Part shown: positions 18,762-63,399 of the stretch, piece after piece
Layout of the letters: each line of letters begins with the position of its first letter
Numbering within the stretch: position 1 is the stretch's first letter
Source: Escherichia phage 4E8
Sequence record: OQ689734.1
DNA: 64,000 bases
Strand: one strand, 5' to 3'
Translations under genes and position numbers: made by a program
Notes under the pieces: model-generated
What the model was told of the DNA's origin: nothing
Database searches by the model: none
What the model saw: only the letters and a program-made list of their open reading frames with translations

Positions 18762-19001
18762 CTAGATTAAATCGTAATACTTAATAATATCAGAGAGCTT
18801 AAACTCTCTAATGTCATTCTTGTCATTATCCCAAGCGGTCATTATCCAACAAGGTTTGCCCCCATTATGATAACGGGAAGAAGCAACTGAGGTTCGTATA
18901 GGAATAACGGAGCGGTCTGCAATCTCGCCTCTCCAGTTACGATAGCTAAAGCGAAGAGTTTGTTTCGTAGATACTTGATCATTTGTGCTTTCCTTGTTCA
19001 T
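18762..19001 (-). CDS. hypothetical protein
   Basis: ORF track gives 18762-19121 but that overlaps the upstream HNH gene by 98 nt; internal Met gives a non-overlapping start. Confidence 0.45.
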   Translation of the reverse strand: MNKESTNDQVSTKQTLRFSYRNWRGEIADRSVIPIRTSVASSRYHNGGKPCWIMTAWDNDKNDIREFKLSDIIKYYDLI

Positions 19002-19023
19002 GGATTCAAAGACTTCCTTTTCT

Positions 19024-19428
19024 TCAGGAGTCTCTAGATTTTTTAAATTCGCGTCTTGCATCGTTTTCTTCCTTAGTTTTAATCTTATGGCAGGGTTCTT
19101 TACACAAGACTTGAAAGCCATCTACTTCAACCAAAGCTCTTTCGATGATTTCATCCCAAGATGCTTCATGGTCCACTGGAACAATGGGATTGATGTGGTC
19201 AACAGCTACTTCCTTAAGAGGGTAGTCATTACCACACATGGCACACTTATAGTGCATTGCCAGCTTACCAGTCTTAGGGTTGATCTTGCGTTCTGTCTGA
19301 GCTTCTTTAAGAGAGTCAAACATAGGCTTCCACTTTCTAGTCAGAGAACGAATCCCTGACTTGATGAAGGAATTGTAACGTGCTTCAGTCCATGTCCCAG
19401 AGCACCTAGTCTTCTCAGCCTTCGCCAT
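19024..19428 (-). CDS. HNH endonuclease
   Basis: CAMCG...VDHINPIVPVDHE...LCKEPCH zinc/HNH motif; first ~56 codons of the track ORF look out of frame, start moved to MAKAEK. Confidence 0.65.
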   Translation of the reverse strand: MAKAEKTRCSGTWTEARYNSFIKSGIRSLTRKWKPMFDSLKEAQTERKINPKTGKLAMHYKCAMCGNDYPLKEVAVDHINPIVPVDHEASWDEIIERALVEVDGFQVLCKEPCHKIKTKEENDARREFKKSRDS

Positions 19429-19606
19429 AACCAACATCCATATCAGCATCTTCCCAAATACGTTTGTTAATACGATGTGATTCTTTTTCAGCACGAGGGA
19501 TACGTCCAGTACGACGATCAAATGCTTGATGTTTAATCTTCTGGTCTTTGCGAGACTCACGATTAGAGGAATTTTCATCATACGAACGATAATCAAACTT
19601 ACCCAT
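19415..19606 (-). CDS. small basic hypothetical protein
   Basis: Arg/Lys-rich 63-aa ORF, start overlaps stop of upstream gene. Confidence 0.45.
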   Translation of the reverse strand: MGKFDYRSYDENSSNRESRKDQKIKHQAFDRRTGRIPRAEKESHRINKRIWEDADMDVGYGEG

Positions 19607-20136
19607 TATTCAGTTCCTTCTGTTTTTAAGTAATCACGATCCATATAGTAGGTTTTAACGGAATCTTGAGATGGTGTTGGGTCAAAAACTACCAACATAC
19701 TCCCTTTTGTGTTTCCGTTAACAGGGACTCTAGTATCAGCTCTTACAAAACTAATACGTCCTCCTGTTATAAACATTATACTATTAGCATTTATCCTACA
19801 CTTATCAAACCATCGAACTGAAGTATCCGCTGGAATAAGTAGAACTGTTCCAACATTGTGGTCCTGTTGATTTCTAATTGCCAAGTCAACCCACGGTCCA
19901 ATATCTGAATATGGTGGATTACACCAAACATAACTACCTCTAAACACTTCAAAGTCATAAGTCAGAGCATTATCTTCCTCTGATATGAAAGTGCTAACTA
20001 GGTGATTGTCTTGACTTGCTGCAATATCACATACGAAGTGTTTATTCTTATTAACATAATTAAACAACCACTGAGGTGTTTGCCACAAATCTCTTATATC
20101 TACCGGAGTGTGTGAGCTTCTATAATCTGTTACCAT
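19606..20136 (-). CDS. dam: DNA N6-adenine methyltransferase (phage Dam-type)
   Basis: motifs WQTPQWLF and VWCNPPYS (NPPY catalytic motif IV). Confidence 0.8.
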   Translation of the reverse strand: MVTDYRSSHTPVDIRDLWQTPQWLFNYVNKNKHFVCDIAASQDNHLVSTFISEEDNALTYDFEVFRGSYVWCNPPYSDIGPWVDLAIRNQQDHNVGTVLLIPADTSVRWFDKCRINANSIMFITGGRISFVRADTRVPVNGNTKGSMLVVFDPTPSQDSVKTYYMDRDYLKTEGTE

Positions 20137-32021: not shown

Positions 32022-32497
32022 TCTAAAACCCTTTCCTCTAAATCATAAAAGATTTGATTTGTCCCATTGTTTTCAACAAGCACTGTCCCGTTATCTAACA
32101 GGGTAGTAACTTGTGAATAAGGAATGTTCTTTAACATCAGAGCATTGATGGTTGGCTTATTTTTGAAGTAAGCGACCGGCTCAACGTAGAAGGAAATCCC
32201 ACGACTTCCTTTGATTGGTGTGCTTGAAGACAGAACCCAAATCGTTTCTGGCTTGTCTACTTCCTTTTCAACACCAACCTCAACAAGCGAGTCAGCAGCG
32301 AAACCTACAGGACGACTAGAAGAGCCAAGCGCCCGAATAAATCCCGGTAATTTCGACATATTAGACCAACTACCAGTGTTTTCATTAAACACAGGTCTTA
32401 CATCACCATATGCCCAAACCAGATTATCACAGTCACGGGCTATGTATTTGGTCCAATCAGGAACATCATACTCTCTTCCTTCAAAAATAGCTTTCAT
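32018..32497 (-). CDS. hypothetical protein
   Basis: 159-aa ORF. Confidence 0.5.
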   Translation of the reverse strand: MKAIFEGREYDVPDWTKYIARDCDNLVWAYGDVRPVFNENTGSWSNMSKLPGFIRALGSSSRPVGFAADSLVEVGVEKEVDKPETIWVLSSSTPIKGSRGISFYVEPVAYFKNKPTINALMLKNIPYSQVTTLLDNGTVLVENNGTNQIFYDLEERVLE

Positions 32498-58490: not shown

Positions 58491-58711
58491 GATGCTTGAT
58501 ACCTTTGAATGTGTTCAATACGGGTTGATTGAGCAAATGACGCTTTAACAGCCATTTTCCTAACTTCTTCTTTACGCTGGTTAGTGTGTACAGTATCCCA
58601 GTGGTTGTTATCACGTTGGCGCTGTAATATCTTACTACATTTGCGATGGTTTCCCGTGCTGCGATGTTTCTCACAAATAGGACACTTGCCAAAATTGCTA
58701 CTGAATATCAT
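58487..58711 (-). CDS. small zinc-finger-like protein
   Basis: CPICEKH...HRKC; chosen over overlapping frame 58480-58692 because both ends make 4-nt coupled overlaps. Confidence 0.45.
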   Translation of the reverse strand: MIFSSNFGKCPICEKHRSTGNHRKCSKILQRQRDNNHWDTVHTNQRKEEVRKMAVKASFAQSTRIEHIQRYQAS

Positions 58712-58935
58712 TTTCTCAATCCCAACTTTCTTAAGATACGGCCTAACGTTGTTTCTTGCGTGATAATATAGCTGATCGCTTCACGTTCCAACGTTTCAAC
58801 CTTCATTGGCGACGGATACCATTCACCGGTAATAATACATTTACATTCAACGCCATACTTTTTAGATAGGCGGTAATGTTGACCGTTGACAAGGTTTCTA
58901 TAAACCGTGGTATGCGTAATTAACATGATCATCAC
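58708..58935 (-). CDS. hypothetical protein
   Basis: 75-aa ORF. Confidence 0.45.
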   Translation of the reverse strand: MMIMLITHTTVYRNLVNGQHYRLSKKYGVECKCIITGEWYPSPMKVETLEREAISYIITQETTLGRILRKLGLRK

Positions 58936-59037
58936 CTTTGATTAAATTCTTTGATTAATGCACTGAATCAATGCACTGATAAAAGAAAAGGCGCTACCCG
59001 TTAAGATAGCGCCTTATGTTTATTTAGATTGTCTTAC

Positions 59038-59946
59038 TTATGCCACCTGACGTGCCGCCATAATCTCAGCCGCTTTACGCAATACTTCTTCCTCTTCTGC
59101 TTTCGCCGCTTGTTCGGTACGGGTAGCAACCGTTGAAGAGATACGACCGCGCAGATTATCTAACTTTTCCTGCATAGCTGTAACAGCTTTTTCCATTTCA
59201 TCAGCGTATGAATCGAGTGATTCTAATTCCTTGCTTGATGCGTTCATCAGATAATCGTCAGAGATCGCTACCGTTGAAGCCGTGACTTTCTTGATGAGTG
59301 AATCAAAGGACTTTTTAACTTTGCCGACTTCTTCACTCAGGGCGATAGTATTGTCACTGGTAGCGCCGTTACGCTCATCAGCCAACAATTTTGCTTCAAT
59401 ACGGATTGCATTCAATCGTTCGACCAGTGCATAAATATCCTGATTAAAATCCTCTTTAACTTTCGCCGGGATTTGCAGGTGTGCCGCGACGTTATCGTTA
59501 CAGCCTTTAAAGAAGTTAGGATTATCGACTTCAATTTCATCACCCTTTGCAAATTTTTCGAAAGAGTTTGACCAGCGAGCGCGGTTTTGTTCCATTTTCG
59601 CCTTGATTTGCGATTCTTTCGCACCTTCTTTCGCTTTCGCCTCACCTTCCAGATTAATCCACTTCTTACGACCGTTCGCCGCCTCGGTGTTATATTTGAT
59701 AGGAGTTAAGAAGGTAATTGCAGTGGCGATCACATCCATATCGCGGAAACGTTCAGTTAACAGAAAATCGATCGCTGCCTGCAATACGTCTAACTTTTTA
59801 CCGTTGCTGCGGAAGTGCTGCAAATGACCTAACAAGAAGTTAGAAACATCTTGCTTAATCGCCGCGTTATTGCTACGGATATTGTTAGCCAGTGCATTAA
59901 AACCGGATTCGTTAACCAGATTAAAGATTTTAGCCATGATATTCAC
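59038..59946 (-). CDS. hypothetical protein, 302 aa, compositionally distinct
   Basis: long ORF with visibly GC-richer codon usage than the rest of the window; Ala/Lys/Glu-rich helical C-terminal half. Confidence 0.6.
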   Translation of the reverse strand: MNIMAKIFNLVNESGFNALANNIRSNNAAIKQDVSNFLLGHLQHFRSNGKKLDVLQAAIDFLLTERFRDMDVIATAITFLTPIKYNTEAANGRKKWINLEGEAKAKEGAKESQIKAKMEQNRARWSNSFEKFAKGDEIEVDNPNFFKGCNDNVAAHLQIPAKVKEDFNQDIYALVERLNAIRIEAKLLADERNGATSDNTIALSEEVGKVKKSFDSLIKKVTASTVAISDDYLMNASSKELESLDSYADEMEKAVTAMQEKLDNLRGRISSTVATRTEQAAKAEEEEVLRKAAEIMAARQVA

Positions 59947-61265
59947 CTTTCAATTGTAAGGGCACTATGCCCCGCTCTCTATGAGCTTTTTAAGCCATTA
60001 TTGACTTATCGATAACCACTCATTTTTAAGTAGTTATTGATAAGTAAGGGAGTCTTATCAGGAGTTAACCTTGCTCCCTTATTATCTGCGATGTTTCATC
60101 TGGTATCTTTAATTAGTCGCTATAAACTAAGCCGACCTGATAGCGATGATCAATCATCACAATAAGGCAGTGTGCCCGACTCTAATTAGTTACTTTATTG
60201 TAACCGTCGGTAATATCGTTTACTTTGCTTTCGCTCCCGCCTATCCTTTTATACTAACTCTCAATCGCTAACCATCGCCCACTACGGGAGGTTATTGCGA
60301 AAGAGTCATTAGCCGTCTAATATTCCGACGTTTTATATCTTTCGGCAAGTTTACTACATAACCCGACTATGTACTTTCATCTTATGATGAATCTCAAGCC
60401 GTTCACATCGTAAACGTTCACACTAAACCTTATTGTTAAATAGCAATTTGCCACTTTTTAACCATTCCCCGCCGCTCTCAATTGAGCGTTAATTCGTCGG
60501 GCTTGTCTACCCTGATTCACTTCTTCCACCGTAGCGCCTTGTTAGCGATGGCCGCCGCTACCCTTTAACCGTGGGCGATTAGCTTAAGCCTTTGCGTGCA
60601 CTCGATGAGTCCGCTTATCAGTGGTGACGTTTCCAGTTAAGGGATTGTGAGATTGTTTTCTCTGATAGTCTAGAGAATCTCACACCGTTTTATCTGGTAT
60701 GCTTTCCGATGGTTATTATCATCAAGCATATTCAACCGATATAGGAGAATGTTTAAATTGTTAAAGAGCGGTAAATCTATCAACGTGCTTTCTCACGTTA
60801 TGCAACTGTTAGCCGTTGTTACGCTTTTCACTGAAGCGGTGATTTGCTTAAGTGTGCTCATTATGAATCATGCTGATTTAGCTGTCAACCGCTTTTTTAA
60901 TCTTTTTCGTCGTTCCCTTTATTGGGAGGATATATCAATCAGCTATATTTGATTGAAGATTAAGCGGTAATGCTTAACCCATGATTCATATTTTTAAAGA
61001 GCATTTAGCCTTTTATAGTGTCTGCTAATCACTGCATCATTAAAGGCTTACTTATTCATTAACGGGGCGCCTAAGCCCGAACTACTCGCTGCACTATGTG
61101 CCACCTTTCCCGCGATACGTTGATTTGGGAACTAGTTAACGTTGTTTTGTTAACTTGTGGTTAGTATGGACTACTTTAACCACGTTTGCAACCTCTTTTT
61201 TATCATCTTCTTTTATTCCGTTCCCTTATCTCGCTTGAATCTATGCGAAAGGGCAAGATGATAAG

Positions 61266-61281
61266 TTTTTAAAGAGCGGGG
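61266..61281 (+). repeat. TTTTTAAAGAGCGGGG direct repeat, copy 3 of 4
   Basis: exact 16-mer repeated at 61376; shorter versions at 60761 (TTAAAGAGCGG) and 60991 (TTTTTAAAGAGC). Confidence 0.5.
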
Positions 61282-61375
61282 ATCTTTTGATTCATCGCTG
61301 AATATGTGCTCATTATACGTTAGGCTTTTCAGTTGTCAACATTCTTTTCAGAATGTTTTTCACTTTCCAGCCTAC

Positions 61376-61391
61376 TTTTTAAAGAGCGGGG
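61376..61391 (+). repeat. TTTTTAAAGAGCGGGG direct repeat, copy 4 of 4
   Basis: identical to 61266-61281. Confidence 0.5.
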
Positions 61392-61620
61392 CAATTTCTT
61401 GCCTTGTATGTTTTACATCGTACCCGATGAAATGAAGTATACACTAATCAGATGAGGTTGCAATAGGGTAAAGCAAATTATTTTAAACTTTTTTGAAAGG
61501 TGGGAAGTATAAGAGAATGCGCGCGGGATAACATACGCAAAACAGGCTGTAAATCACTTTCTAACGTCCTGTAAGCCATCCTAACGAGCTAAAAGGGAGT
61601 AAGGCATACAATCACCCTAT

Positions 61621-61647
61621 AAATGAAAAAAGCCTCACAGTGAGGCT
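61621..61647 (-). terminator. rho-independent terminator (minus strand)
   Basis: agcctcac-t-gtgaggct hairpin followed by TTTTTTCATTT on minus strand, downstream of 61725 gene. Confidence 0.55.
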
Positions 61648-61724
61648 CATAGGGAGGTTTTAAAGCATTAAGTAAATTATGACCATAGGCATGACTACGG
61701 CACAATATAGGAGAAAGATTAAGC

Positions 61725-62102
61725 CTATGGATTTGCACATTGACCATTACCGGATGCTATTTCATTCATTGACTCATCAAACAAGGTTAGGGATGAGCGC
61801 ATCAGATGATCAATCATGACTTGTTTACCAGTGGTTTCATTTACCAGTTGAATAGTTTTATCATATGATTGTACATGATCGAAATCATTTACATGTAAAA
61901 TAATAACCTTAGGTGACTGTTTACCGGTATCATAATTTTCTATAAGATAGGTACATTGCAAGCCTTCGATAGTCTTAGGCGTGAATGTTGCAGCCTTAAC
62001 ACTACCTATAGACGATAGGAGAACGCCCAGCAGGAGAACGACAAGGAAAAAGCCCACGAATACTTTTACTACAAATTTGATAATACCCATGATAATAATC
62101 AC
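61725..62102 (-). CDS. membrane-anchored hypothetical protein
   Basis: N-terminal TM segment FVGFFLVVLLLGVLL. Confidence 0.5.
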   Translation of the reverse strand: MIIIMGIIKFVVKVFVGFFLVVLLLGVLLSSIGSVKAATFTPKTIEGLQCTYLIENYDTGKQSPKVIILHVNDFDHVQSYDKTIQLVNETTGKQVMIDHLMRSSLTLFDESMNEIASGNGQCANP

Positions 62103-62187
62103 CTATAGTTAGAGAATATAAGAATAAAGCATATCAGCGACAAATAGCGCCACTGTAGCGACGAACAAGCAACGCCAAAAATAATCA

Positions 62188-62457
62188 TTAATCATCGTTG
62201 CTACCCTCGCCAAAAAAGGATATACTGATTTGTTCCACTTCTTCCAGCGACAGGAGAATCCCGCGTTGGGCTAAATACTTTCCAACAGTCAGATAGTCCT
62301 GTACTAAACAGACAACAGGAAAGCGGATAGTCTGTATTTCACCCTTAGAAAGAAAGGATAGATAGCCAACGTCGACTGATTCATCAAAGGATAACGTAAC
62401 GCCACCGTAATTATGCGTGTCAATCAATGCAATAGTTTCATTTCCCATTCGTAACAT
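62188..62457 (-). CDS. hypothetical protein
   Basis: 89-aa ORF. Confidence 0.45.
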   Translation of the reverse strand: MLRMGNETIALIDTHNYGGVTLSFDESVDVGYLSFLSKGEIQTIRFPVVCLVQDYLTVGKYLAQRGILLSLEEVEQISISFFGEGSNDD

Positions 62458-62704
62458 CCTCGATTAGCCCGTGATTGAGCAGGTTAGCCAGCGATAATCC
62501 ACCGTCAAAATAAATTGAGCGGAAATCATCGCGGTTAATTTCAAGATCAGCAAACATTAGCCAATTTTTAGCCTGCTTAAAATCCATCTTGCAAAAAGTG
62601 ATAATAGGAACTGTTAACTGACCATCTAGGGTGTTAAACATAATTTCGGAACGACCGACAAAACAAGAAAAACCATTAGCAAACTTAACTTCTTTGATAG
62701 CCAT
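62438..62704 (-). CDS. hypothetical protein
   Basis: 88-aa ORF. Confidence 0.45.
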   Translation of the reverse strand: MAIKEVKFANGFSCFVGRSEIMFNTLDGQLTVPIITFCKMDFKQAKNWLMFADLEINRDDFRSIYFDGGLSLANLLNHGLIEDVTNGK

Positions 62705-62730
62705 TATTTACACTCCCAAAAATAGGTTAT

Positions 62731-63222
62731 TTACTTACTAGCCTTAATGCAGTTGGCTAAATTAACGTGAACGGTATAAACAGCGTTATCAGCGTTATTG
62801 TAAACAGTAGTCGCAATCATCGACTGATTAACCGGGCCATAACTCACTAGATTGGTTACAGCTTTAACGTCTTCGTAACGTTGTACAGTGCCAAATGTAA
62901 CCATATCCGCATCGTTATCAGTACGCTTGAGAACTAGATCACTGTTAGGCTGATTGTCTAGTGTTTTGGTACTAACGACCAGACCATCACGGGAAACGTT
63001 ACTAAATTTAACCTTTAAAACGACTTGATTGGTGTCACTATCCGCACCGTTGCAAATCATCCAACCCTTATCAATGGAACTAGCGAAAACGTCAGCGGCA
63101 TTAGTTGCAGGAGCAGGACTAGCGATAGCCTTATCAGAAAAAGAAGTTACCAGTGCACTGACACCGATGACTGTAACCAGCGCATAACTTGCCAGATTAA
63201 CAACCTGCATCACTTTCGCCAT
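62731..63222 (-). CDS. secreted/periplasmic hypothetical protein
   Basis: signal-peptide-like N-terminus YALVTVIGVSALVTSFS...AIASPA. Confidence 0.55.
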   Translation of the reverse strand: MAKVMQVVNLASYALVTVIGVSALVTSFSDKAIASPAPATNAADVFASSIDKGWMICNGADSDTNQVVLKVKFSNVSRDGLVVSTKTLDNQPNSDLVLKRTDNDADMVTFGTVQRYEDVKAVTNLVSYGPVNQSMIATTVYNNADNAVYTVHVNLANCIKASK

Positions 63223-63399
63223 TTTTGTTACTCCTTAGATAGAATCAATTAACTATCGCCACTATATATTAAAGGAAAGGACTGTCAACCATTTATTTTC
63301 TAACTTTCTCATAACTCACTGAATCAAAAAGGAATTTAATTTACTAAACTTTCTTACTCAGAGCATAGTTTACTACTTCTATTGTTACACTATCACATA

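What the first reader, a model, noticed from the sequence alone, without database searches (positions are those of the whole stretch)
59947..61724. A 1.8-kb ORF-poor region with direct and inverted repeats (early control region, origin or noncoding RNA locus)
Only one small and doubtful ORF (60749-60952) exists here on either strand, in an otherwise tightly packed genome. TTTTTAAAGAGCGGGG is repeated exactly at 61266 and 61376, with shorter versions at 60761 and 60991. There is a near-perfect inverted repeat CTTATCGATAAC...GTTATTGATAAG at ~60008-60048, a TAAGGGAG/CTCCCTTA pair at ~60046-60082, and a GTGAGATT...AATCTCAC pair at ~60641-60678. Sigma-70-like -35/-10 pairs follow two of the direct repeats (e.g. 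TTGATT-N18-CATTAT after 61281). This looks like a host-polymerase early promoter cluster, a replication origin, or a locus for structured RNAs.
Basis: seen in the sequence. Interest (0 to 1): 0.6.

Follow-up and report, generated by a model that had tools for sequence, protein, structure and literature searches.

The report
Giant structured early RNA with boxA

Summary
The window is a phiEco32-like (Gordonclarkvirinae) coliphage, and the gap lies between homologues of phiEco32 genes 125 and 124, both on the minus strand. There are four exact matches to the functional consensus GYTCTTTAANA within 630 bp, and one copy is 16/16 identical to the rrnG boxA plus spacer. Each follows a minus-strand sigma-70 promoter, two of them strong (12/12 and 11/12 consensus matches). 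Downstream lies about 1 kb that is not coding (no 3-periodicity; the one ORF is broken in relatives). It is as conserved as the neighbouring gene (0.87 pairwise identity against 0.70 at third-codon positions). It folds into about 50 helices, with 95 base pairs changed on both sides (shuffles 42 ± 3; slid controls 10–19). It matches no Rfam family, no E. coli genome and no other phage group. The promoter cluster is already published. The boxA cassettes and the large RNA appear undescribed. The RNA's function is unknown, and no origin features were found.

The parts
61630..61648 (-). Intrinsic terminator (GAGCCTCACTGTGAGGCTT + T-run) ending the upstream early operon (gene 125 homologue)
   Evidence: Annotated as a terminator at the homologous place in SU10 and SU7.
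61436..61463 (-). P_C, a weak sigma-70-like promoter (TTGCAA-16-TATACT, 9/12)
   Evidence: This part of the spacer is variable among relatives.
61376..61403 (-). Hairpin GGCAA-GAAA-TTGCC (61403->61390) followed by boxA-1 GCTCTTTAAAAA (61387->61376)
   Evidence: Relatives lengthen the stem on both sides (GGCAAG-GAAA-CTTGCC).
61312..61339 (-). P_A, a perfect sigma-70 promoter TTGACA-16-TATAAT (12/12); transcription start inferred near 61305
61003..61202 (-). Indel-prone segment, present in about half of the relatives; other lineages carry a promoter here instead
   Evidence: SU10 promoter at 73668.
60991..61002 (-). boxA-3 GCTCTTTAAAAA, conserved in the 27 of 28 aligned genomes whose fetched segment reaches it
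60860..60888 (-). P_B, sigma-70 promoter TTGACA-17-CATAAT (11/12), with TTGAC and CATAAT invariant in 28 genomes; transcription start inferred near 60853; equals the SU10 promoter listed at 73511
60782..60838 (-). Three leader hairpins. The last (60799-60782, loop AGAAAG) has 3 covarying pairs and sits about 12 nt upstream of boxA-4, in the rrn-like boxB-hairpin position
   Evidence: (helices 9-11).
60754..60778 (-). Invariant 18-mer AGATTTACCGCTCTTTAA with boxA-4 and spacer. GCTCTTTAACAATTTA (60769->60754) is 16/16 identical to the rrnG boxA-spacer
60463..60751 (-).
   Evidence: (helices 15-29).
60435..60462 (-). Invariant hairpin containing the boxA-like GCTATTTAACAA. It fails the critical C4 position, so it is not counted as a functional boxA
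   Evidence: (helices 30-31).
60161..60434 (-). RNA domain II, closed by helix 60434-60427 / 60168-60161; the richest in covarying pairs
   Evidence: (helices 32-43).
60088..60160 (-). RNA domain III, a long irregular hairpin of 18 + 7 pairs
   Evidence: (helices 44-45).
59959..60084 (-).
   Evidence: (helices 46-51).
59935..59951 (-). Shine-Dalgarno AAGGTG (59949->59944) and ATG (59937->59935) of the gene 124 homologue. It is predicted to pair with AUUUACC next to boxA-4 (60776-60766 with 59951-59941); both sides are invariant, so this is a hypothesis only
   Evidence: (helix 13).

Best explanation
The gap is the promoter and leader region of the main early operon, read on the window's minus strand. 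It is organised like an E. coli rRNA operon leader or the T7 early leader. An intrinsic terminator ends the first early operon. After it come tandem cassettes of a sigma-70 promoter, a small hairpin and a consensus boxA. Host RNA polymerase starts at these promoters. NusB/NusE(S10), with NusA, NusG and SuhB, bind boxA on the nascent RNA and make elongation resistant to Rho. Without this, Rho would terminate within more than 800 nt of untranslated RNA and silence gene 124 and the early genes behind it. The RNA transcribed after the last boxA (about 60750 to 59960) is not a passive spacer. It is a conserved RNA of about 800 nt folded into three closed domains plus terminal hairpins, kept by purifying selection on its base pairs. 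It is therefore a functional RNA in its own right. It is most likely either cut out of the primary transcript as a stable RNA or RNP that acts early in infection, or a cis-acting platform controlling gene 124. Shown here: motifs, strand, conservation, non-coding character, covariation, clade restriction. Inferred: transcription in vivo (backed by published promoter work on relatives), Nus binding, the anti-Rho role, and any function of the RNA.
For: Genome identity and context. Minus-strand promoters of 12/12 and 11/12. P_B is invariant in its hexamers across 28 genomes. Published sigma-70 promoters occupy the same spacer in SU10 and phiEco32. boxA: the consensus was verified in PMC2724277 and PMC5725501. 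GYTCTTTAANA occurs 5 times in 64 kb against 0.65 expected, 4 of them on the minus strand of the spacer. One copy is 16/16 identical to the rrnG boxA-spacer. Every genome has 2-4 promoters, each followed by a boxA, mostly 49-175 nt downstream. Hairpins precede boxA (p about 1e-5). The one early promoter that directly precedes a translated gene has no boxA. boxA is known to protect long untranslated RNAs from Rho (PMC7665894). Not coding: no 3-periodicity (p 0.28-0.99, against about 0 in gene 124), and the ORF is broken in relatives. Selection: 0.874 pairwise identity over 1056 nt with almost no indels, against 0.70 at gene 124 third-codon positions and 0.71 in the variable upstream spacer. Structure: 267 pairs with 88 compensatory; 317 pairs in 51 helices with 98.0% of cells paired; 95 pairs changed on both sides against 42 +/- 3.4 in shuffles (0/500) and 10-19 in slid controls; 32 of 51 helices covary. 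Strand: consensus fold -501 against -438 kcal/mol, and G.U/A.C cells 772/61 against 501/208. Single-sequence z-score -6.5.
Against: No expression data were available. The two primary phiEco32 papers are not held, so the 5' and 3' ends, processing and stability of the RNA are unknown. The relatives are close (75-94% identity), so covarying cells partly reflect shared ancestry. Single-sequence z-scores do not separate the strands (-6.5 against -7.5). The RNA sense strand is G-rich over much of the body, so it may be a poor Rho substrate anyway. rrn-type boxA complexes do not read through intrinsic terminators. P_C is weak in this window, and boxA-3 has no promoter of its own here. The predicted helix pairing the boxA-4 flank with the gene 124 Shine-Dalgarno has no covariation (helix 13).
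Confidence: 0.78

Rival explanations
1. It is only a long structured 5' untranslated leader of the gene 124 mRNA. The structure serves in cis for mRNA stability, RNase processing or control of gene 124 translation, and no RNA acts in trans.
For: The RNA is always directly upstream of gene 124, at a fixed distance (boxA-4 lies 826-865 nt from the ATG in 23 genomes). RNA and gene co-occur in the same 97 records. No terminator separates them. A predicted anti-SD/SD helix closes the whole fold. In T7 the same position holds an RNase III site that shapes the gene 0.3 mRNA (own knowledge; sequence).
Against: About 50 helices and 800 nt conserved as tightly as a protein gene is far more than known cis leaders need. 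The closing helix has no covariation support.
Confidence: 0.3
2. It is a Nus-factor sponge. Abundant early transcripts carrying up to four consensus boxA copies (depending on the start site) titrate NusB/NusE away from host rrn operons and contribute to host shut-off.
For: There are 4 consensus boxA copies in this spacer, and relatives carry 5-7 boxA-like sites when the conserved C4-variant site is counted. All lie behind very strong promoters. Competition for NusB by boxA transcripts has been reported for lambda (own knowledge; not checked here).
Against: It does not explain the conserved 800-nt fold downstream. One boxA per promoter is exactly what plain anti-termination needs. Nothing here measures titration.
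Confidence: 0.1
3. It is a replication origin, or a primer-RNA locus where transcription from the strong promoters primes DNA synthesis, as at the T7 primary origin.
For: It is a large non-coding region with strong promoters. T7's origin lies just downstream of promoters (own knowledge). There is a small local wobble in GC skew at 60.6-61.6 kb.
Against: The spacer has no iterons, no DnaA boxes and no AT-rich dip (GC 0.37-0.45). The genome-wide skew flips at about 19-20 kb instead. Tolerance of G.U on one strand only and the boxA sites point to an RNA-level function.
Confidence: 0.05
4. It is a DNA-level entry signal. The region would pause or stage genome internalisation after the first ~2.7 kb has entered, like the T5 first-step-transfer stop region, or would serve as a T7-like internalisation promoter cluster.
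For: It lies about 2.9-4.2 kb from a physical genome end (terminal repeat annotated in PAS59). It follows a short first operon that ends in a terminator. T7's homologous A1-A3 region is called an internalisation signal.
Against: Compensatory base-pair changes with strand asymmetry are not expected for a duplex-DNA signal. There is no direct evidence on which end enters first.
Confidence: 0.05
5. It holds hidden protein-coding genes: small ORFs, or a gene read through recoding.
For: One 67-aa ORF on the + strand and several ORFs of 25-52 aa. One record (EK5) annotates seven tiny ORFs here.
Against: There is no codon periodicity of substitutions anywhere in 61300-59950. The 67-aa ORF is broken in relatives. 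It has no PHROG match.
Confidence: 0.02

Closest known systems
E. coli rrn operon leader (P1/P2 promoters, boxB hairpin, boxA, boxC; rrn anti-termination complex)
   Same: Tandem strong sigma-70 promoters. A hairpin followed by boxA on the nascent RNA. One copy is identical over 16 nt to the rrnG boxA plus spacer. A long, highly structured, untranslated product. A possible leader/trailer helix enclosing the product.
   Different: It is encoded by a virulent phage. Every promoter has its own boxA. The product is unrelated to rRNA (no Rfam or E. coli match). The transcript runs on into protein-coding early genes.
Phage T7 early leader (promoters A1, A2, A3, then boxA, then RNase III site R0.3, then gene 0.3)
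   Same: A podophage early region with three tandem host promoters followed by a consensus boxA (ACGCTCTTTAACAATCTGG in the T7 sequence printed in PMC11863960) ahead of the first early gene.
   Different: T7 has one boxA and about 100 nt holding an RNase III hairpin. Here about 800 nt of conserved multi-domain RNA fills that position. There is no sequence similarity.
boxA leaders of CRISPR arrays (Stringer et al. 2020, PMC7665894)
   Same: boxA placed upstream of a long non-coding transcript to prevent premature Rho termination.
   Different: The product there is a repeat-spacer array that is processed into crRNAs. Here it is a single large unique fold.
Lambda nutL/nutR sites (N-dependent anti-termination)
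   Same: A phage-encoded boxA just downstream of early promoters. The CGCTCTTTAAAAA copies resemble nutL boxA-spacer (cgcucuuaaaaauuaa).
   Different: Lambda has boxA followed by a boxB hairpin that binds N. Here the hairpins precede boxA, the boxA is the full rrn consensus (extra U), and no N-like factor is known.
Large ornate RNAs GOLLD, ROOL and OLE
   Same: Large size (several hundred nt to about 1 kb). Many covarying helices. Association with phages (GOLLD, ROOL). Function unknown.
   Different: No match to their Rfam models. Found in virulent E. coli phages. Transcription signals are recognisable. It is contiguous with an mRNA.

Membership tests
boxA (NusB/NusE anti-termination site, rrn type) | Match to the functional gamma-proteobacterial consensus GYTCTTTAANA, including the critical C4 | tested here: met
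   Four exact matches on the minus strand at 60759-61387. There are 5 in the whole 64 kb against 0.65 expected. Consensus taken from PMC5725501. The fifth look-alike (GCTATTTAACA) fails C4 and is excluded.
boxA (NusB/NusE anti-termination site, rrn type) | Lies in the transcribed strand downstream of a promoter, near the 5' end of the transcript | tested here: met
   In 23 genomes each strong promoter is followed by a boxA 49-290 nt downstream, mostly 49-175 nt. In the window P_A precedes boxA-2 by 62 nt and P_B precedes boxA-4 by 119 nt (measured from the -35 start).
boxA (NusB/NusE anti-termination site, rrn type) | rrn-type flanks: an upstream hairpin (boxB position) and the spacer ACAAUUUA | tested here: met
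   boxA-4 plus spacer is 16/16 identical to rrnG. A covarying hairpin sits upstream (helix 11). Hairpins are enriched upstream of all copies.
boxA (NusB/NusE anti-termination site, rrn type) | Binds NusB/NusE and suppresses Rho-dependent termination | not testable with these tools
   This needs ChIP or EMSA, boxA C4T/T6C mutants, nusB/nusE hosts and bicyclomycin.
Sigma-70 early promoter | -35 and -10 hexamers with 16-18 nt spacing, conserved in relatives | tested here: met
   12/12 and 11/12 matches on the minus strand. The P_B hexamers are invariant in 28 genomes. The same promoter is listed for SU10.
Sigma-70 early promoter | Initiation by host holoenzyme in vivo or in vitro | not testable with these tools
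   Reported for the phiEco32 early promoters by Pavlova et al. 2012, as cited in PMC4281155 and PMC8948821. The primary paper is not held.
Structured non-coding RNA | Base pairs kept by compensatory substitutions beyond controls | tested here: met
   95 pairs changed on both sides, against 42 +/- 3.4 in shuffles (0/500) and 10-19 in slid controls. 98.0% of cells paired against 34-46%.
Structured non-coding RNA | Not protein-coding | tested here: met
   No 3-periodicity. The only ORF is broken in relatives.
Structured non-coding RNA | Transcribed and accumulating as RNA | not testable with these tools
   No transcriptome of this phage group was found.
Known Rfam families (GOLLD, ROOL, OLE, HEARO, group I/II introns, RNase P, 6S, tmRNA, rRNA, r-protein leaders and others) | Score at or above the family's gathering threshold | tested here: not met
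   No hit at E <= 1 over 58500-63000. At E <= 10 only chance hits of 7.6-21 bits against thresholds of 34-167.
Lambda-type nut site | boxA followed 3' by a boxB hairpin that binds an N protein | tested here: not met
   The consensus fold places the hairpins 5' of boxA. 3' of boxA-4 there is only a weak, invariant 5-bp A-U stem (helix 14), not a boxB-like hairpin. An N-like protein was not searched for.
Replication origin | Iterons, DnaA boxes, an AT-rich unwinding element, or a strand-skew switch | tested here: not met
T7-type early leader | An RNase III processing site between boxA and the first gene | tested here: inconclusive
   Long helices exist (for example helix 44, 18 pairs), but RNase III sites cannot be recognised from sequence with these tools.

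The most novel reading that the evidence does not exclude
phiEco32-like phages carry a miniature 'rRNA-style operon'. Host Nus-factor anti-termination is recruited to synthesise, and perhaps to chaperone the folding of, a new class of giant ornate RNA (about 0.8-1.0 kb, about 50 helices). This RNA is released from the early transcript and acts in trans as an RNP, decoy or self-assembling particle in host take-over or anti-defence. That would be relevant because the BASEL study reports this phage group as highly resistant to tested defence systems (PMC11990801).
Probability: 0.35. Interest if true: 0.88.

Novelty: new variant of a known kind. Interest (0 to 1): 0.72.

Why it matters
Large structured RNAs of unknown function are rare, and most come from uncultured or hard-to-handle organisms. 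This one sits in virulent E. coli phages that are in culture. Several BASEL-collection isolates (Bas86-Bas94) infect E. coli K-12 with restored O-antigen. Genetics, RNA-seq, chemical probing and cryo-EM are therefore directly feasible. The locus also shows a virulent, non-lambdoid phage using the host rrn anti-termination machinery without a known phage cofactor, with one boxA per promoter. It explains how more than 800 nt of untranslated RNA can precede a long early operon without Rho polarity. In practical terms, about 100 deposited genomes leave this 1-2 kb unannotated or fill it with spurious small ORFs.

Tried and rejected
1. Hidden coding was rejected by the periodicity test and the broken ORF.
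2. Known RNA families: two Rfam scans gave nothing, and there is no tRNA or tmRNA here.
3. Host or prophage origin: there is no blastn match in 5,426 complete E. coli genomes, and a second RNA-body motif is absent from 185,579 species genomes.
4. Wider distribution: the invariant 18-mer found 51 loci in the viral and metagenome collections, but only 13 are true homologues, all phiEco32-like. The rest are about the number expected by chance for an 18-mer.
5. Distant C3 podophage 7-11 has no boxA and no comparable gap.
6. Replication origin was rejected for lack of any origin feature.
7. Gene 124 product as an RNA partner: no Pfam or PDB relative, and the AlphaFold model has pLDDT 50, so no fold search was run.
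8. 'boxA-5' was first counted as a boxA, then excluded because it fails the critical C4 position and lies in a hairpin.
9. Literature: the Pavlova 2012 and Savalia 2008 papers could not be read. No held paper links phiEco32 with boxA. None of the Kuravirus, SU10, BASEL or 7-11 papers read mentions a non-coding RNA in phiEco32-like genomes.
10. A covariance-model search was not built, because no more distant candidate sequences were available to search.
Full report
What the window is. The region matches 97 phage records at 75-93% identity, all Escherichia or Shigella phages of the phiEco32 group (Gordonclarkvirinae: Kuravirus, Nieuwekanaalvirus, Suseptimavirus). The closest is KBNP1711 at 93%. 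The gap lies between homologues of phiEco32 gene 125 (61725-62102, minus strand) and gene 124 (59038-59937, minus strand). It sits in the leftward-transcribed early region, about 2.9-4.2 kb from a physical genome end. Relatives leave the same 1.3-2 kb unannotated, or in one record fill it with tiny ORFs.

Checking the observation. The only ORF of at least 60 aa is 60749-60952 (+). The 16-mer is exact at 61266 and 61376, and degenerate copies are at 60758 and 60990. The three inverted repeats are present. Its 'CATTAT' overlaps the reverse complement of a minus-strand -10 box.

Strand and signals. The strong promoters are on the minus strand, the strand of both flanking genes: TTGACA-16-TATAAT (12/12) at 61339->61312 and TTGACA-17-CATAAT (11/12) at 60888->60860. 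A minus-strand intrinsic terminator at 61648->61630 closes the upstream operon. On this strand the direct repeat reads CCCCGCTCTTTAAAAA, and the copy at 60769 reads GCTCTTTAACAATTTA. The literature gives rrn boxA as UGCUCUUUA and the tested rrnG boxA-spacer as CACugcucuuuaacaauuua (PMC2724277). The phage copy is therefore identical to it over 16 nt. The functional gamma-proteobacterial consensus is GYTCTTTAANA, with C4 critical (PMC5725501). It occurs 5 times in the 64-kb window against 0.65 expected (0/100 shuffles reach 5). Four of the five are on the minus strand between 60759 and 61387 (related tests). A fifth look-alike (GCTATTTAACA, 60444->60433) fails C4 and lies in a hairpin, so I do not count it.

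Cassette architecture in relatives. In 23 genomes the spacer holds 2-4 promoters scoring 10-12/12. Each is followed by a boxA, mostly 49-175 nt downstream. The number of cassettes varies between genomes. The last cassette (P_B, then boxA-4) and the distance from boxA-4 to the gene 124 ATG (826-865 nt) are essentially fixed. The 36 nt upstream of boxA copies fold more stably than control positions (-5.9 against -4.4 kcal/mol, p about 1e-5). The hairpin sequences are diverse and some show compensatory changes. This is the rrn order, hairpin then boxA. The first early promoter (63288->63261, 11/12) directly precedes a translated gene and has no boxA.

What is already published. The SU10 genome paper states that, like phiEco32, there are three sigma-70 promoters in the spacer between its genes 120 and 121. 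Its supplementary table lists ttgacagcgaaaacaacatgattcataatgagcaca, which is my P_B (PMC4281155). The early-promoter reading is therefore known. None of the accessible papers on this phage group mentions boxA, anti-termination or a non-coding RNA. The two primary phiEco32 papers are not held.

Non-coding but under selection. In an alignment of 22 relatives, 61002->59947 (1056 nt) has 0.874 mean pairwise identity and almost no indels. The figures for comparison are 0.918, 0.947 and 0.701 at codon positions 1, 2 and 3 of gene 124, and 0.71 in the variable upstream spacer. Variable sites show no 3-periodicity anywhere in 61300-59950 (p 0.28-0.99), whereas gene 124 is strongly periodic. More distant members keep homology from window 61281, which is the start of the CCCCGCTCTTTAAAAA motif containing boxA-2, while the sequence upstream is replaced.

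A large structured RNA. A sequence-only alignment of 28 non-redundant members (A1) gives an RNAalifold consensus of 267 pairs, 88 of them with compensatory double changes. With ribosum scoring the structure has 317 pairs in 51 helices. On that structure 98.0% of cells are standard pairs, against 34-46% when partners are slid by 1-3 columns. 95 pairs have changes on both sides, against 42 +/- 3.4 in column shuffles (0/500) and 10-19 in slid controls. 420 cells are double-changed against 105. 32 of the 51 helices carry at least one covarying pair. The minus-strand sense is favoured: -501 against -438 kcal/mol, and 772 G.U with 61 A.C cells against 501 and 208. Single-sequence folding gives -279 kcal/mol (z -6.5) for the sense strand and -251 (z -7.5) for the antisense strand. 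The fold has several parts: three leader hairpins before boxA-4; domain I (60751-60463); an invariant hairpin; domain II (60434-60161); domain III (60160-60088); and five 3' hairpins up to the gene 124 ribosome-binding site. A predicted long-range helix pairs AUUUACC, next to boxA-4, with the gene 124 Shine-Dalgarno (60776-60766 with 59951-59941). Both sides are invariant, so this remains a hypothesis (helix 13).

Not a known RNA, not host-derived, clade-restricted. Rfam 15 gives no hit at E <= 1 and only chance hits at E <= 10. There is no blastn match in 5,426 complete E. coli genomes. Gene 124 homologues occur in the same 97 phage records. An invariant 18-mer and a second RNA-body motif recover only phiEco32-like genomes from IMG/VR and metagenomes, and nothing from 185,579 species genomes. 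Salmonella phage 7-11 has no boxA and no comparable gap.

Mechanism. Rho terminates untranslated RNA, and boxA-bound Nus complexes prevent this at rrn operons and CRISPR arrays (PMC7665894). A leader of 916 nt (from P_B) to about 1370 nt (from P_A) ahead of a long early operon needs exactly such protection. T7 supplies a podophage precedent: promoters A1-A3 are followed by ACGCTCTTTAACAATCTGG before gene 0.3 (sequence printed in PMC11863960). I therefore read the locus as an rrn/T7-like anti-terminated early transcription unit whose leader has become, or carries, a large functional RNA. Whether that RNA acts in trans after processing or in cis on gene 124 cannot be decided here.

Rivals. An origin is unsupported: there are no iterons, DnaA boxes or AT-rich dip, and the skew flips at about 19-20 kb. 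A Nus-factor sponge and a DNA-entry signal are possible additions, but neither explains the conserved fold. Hidden coding is excluded.

Limits. There are no expression data. The relatives are close, so covariation counts include shared ancestry. RNA ends and processing are unknown. The function of the RNA is unknown. Prior description in the two unread primary papers cannot be ruled out.

Noticed in passing
window 61725-62102 (-) and 62438-62704 (-): The 125-aa and 88-aa early proteins match PHROGs labelled 'terminase' and 'polymerase', and many relatives annotate them that way. They are tiny, have no Pfam match, and the first has a hydrophobic N-terminus. These look like propagated mis-annotations.
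   Followed up: partly
window 61003-61202; loci L002-L023: The number of promoter-hairpin-boxA cassettes differs between genomes (2-4 promoters). A ~200-nt segment is present in only about half of them. The cassettes seem to duplicate and be lost as units.
   Followed up: partly
L009 2167-2367; L012 2667-2867: SU7 and PAS59 carry a 66-aa gene in the variable upstream part of the spacer, where the window has only promoter cassettes.
   Followed up: no
L017 (phage LAMP), alignment A1 columns ~727-810, equivalent to window ~60340-60290: LAMP replaces about 80 nt inside RNA domain II with unrelated, longer sequence while the rest of the fold is kept. This looks like a tolerated variable arm.
   Followed up: no
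window 60687-60700 and 60093-60106; 60675-60689 and 60389-60403: Two short motifs recur within the RNA: AUACCAGAU(A/G)AAAC and AACGGnnUGAGAUUC. They could reflect an internal duplication or repeated binding sites.
   Followed up: no
window 63261-63288 (-): A strong sigma-70 promoter (TTGACA-16-TATAGT, 11/12) directly upstream of the 163-aa gene. It matches the SU10 promoter 'upstream of CDS125' and has no boxA after it.
   Followed up: partly
window 32126-32136 (+): A lone exact match to the boxA consensus (GTTCTTTAACA) far from the spacer. Its context was not examined.
   Followed up: no
window 54415-54491 (-): A tRNA-Arg (anticodon TCT) gene in the early/middle region.
   Followed up: no
window ~19000-20000: The GC skew changes sign here, presumably at the boundary between the rightward late genes and the leftward middle/early genes.
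   Followed up: no
window 60060-60071, 60473-60488, 60139-60160: Several conserved hairpins carry palindromic loops or stems (UUAA, AAUU, GAUGAUUGAUCAUC). These could mediate loop-loop contacts or oligomerisation. This is purely an observation from the sequence.
   Followed up: no
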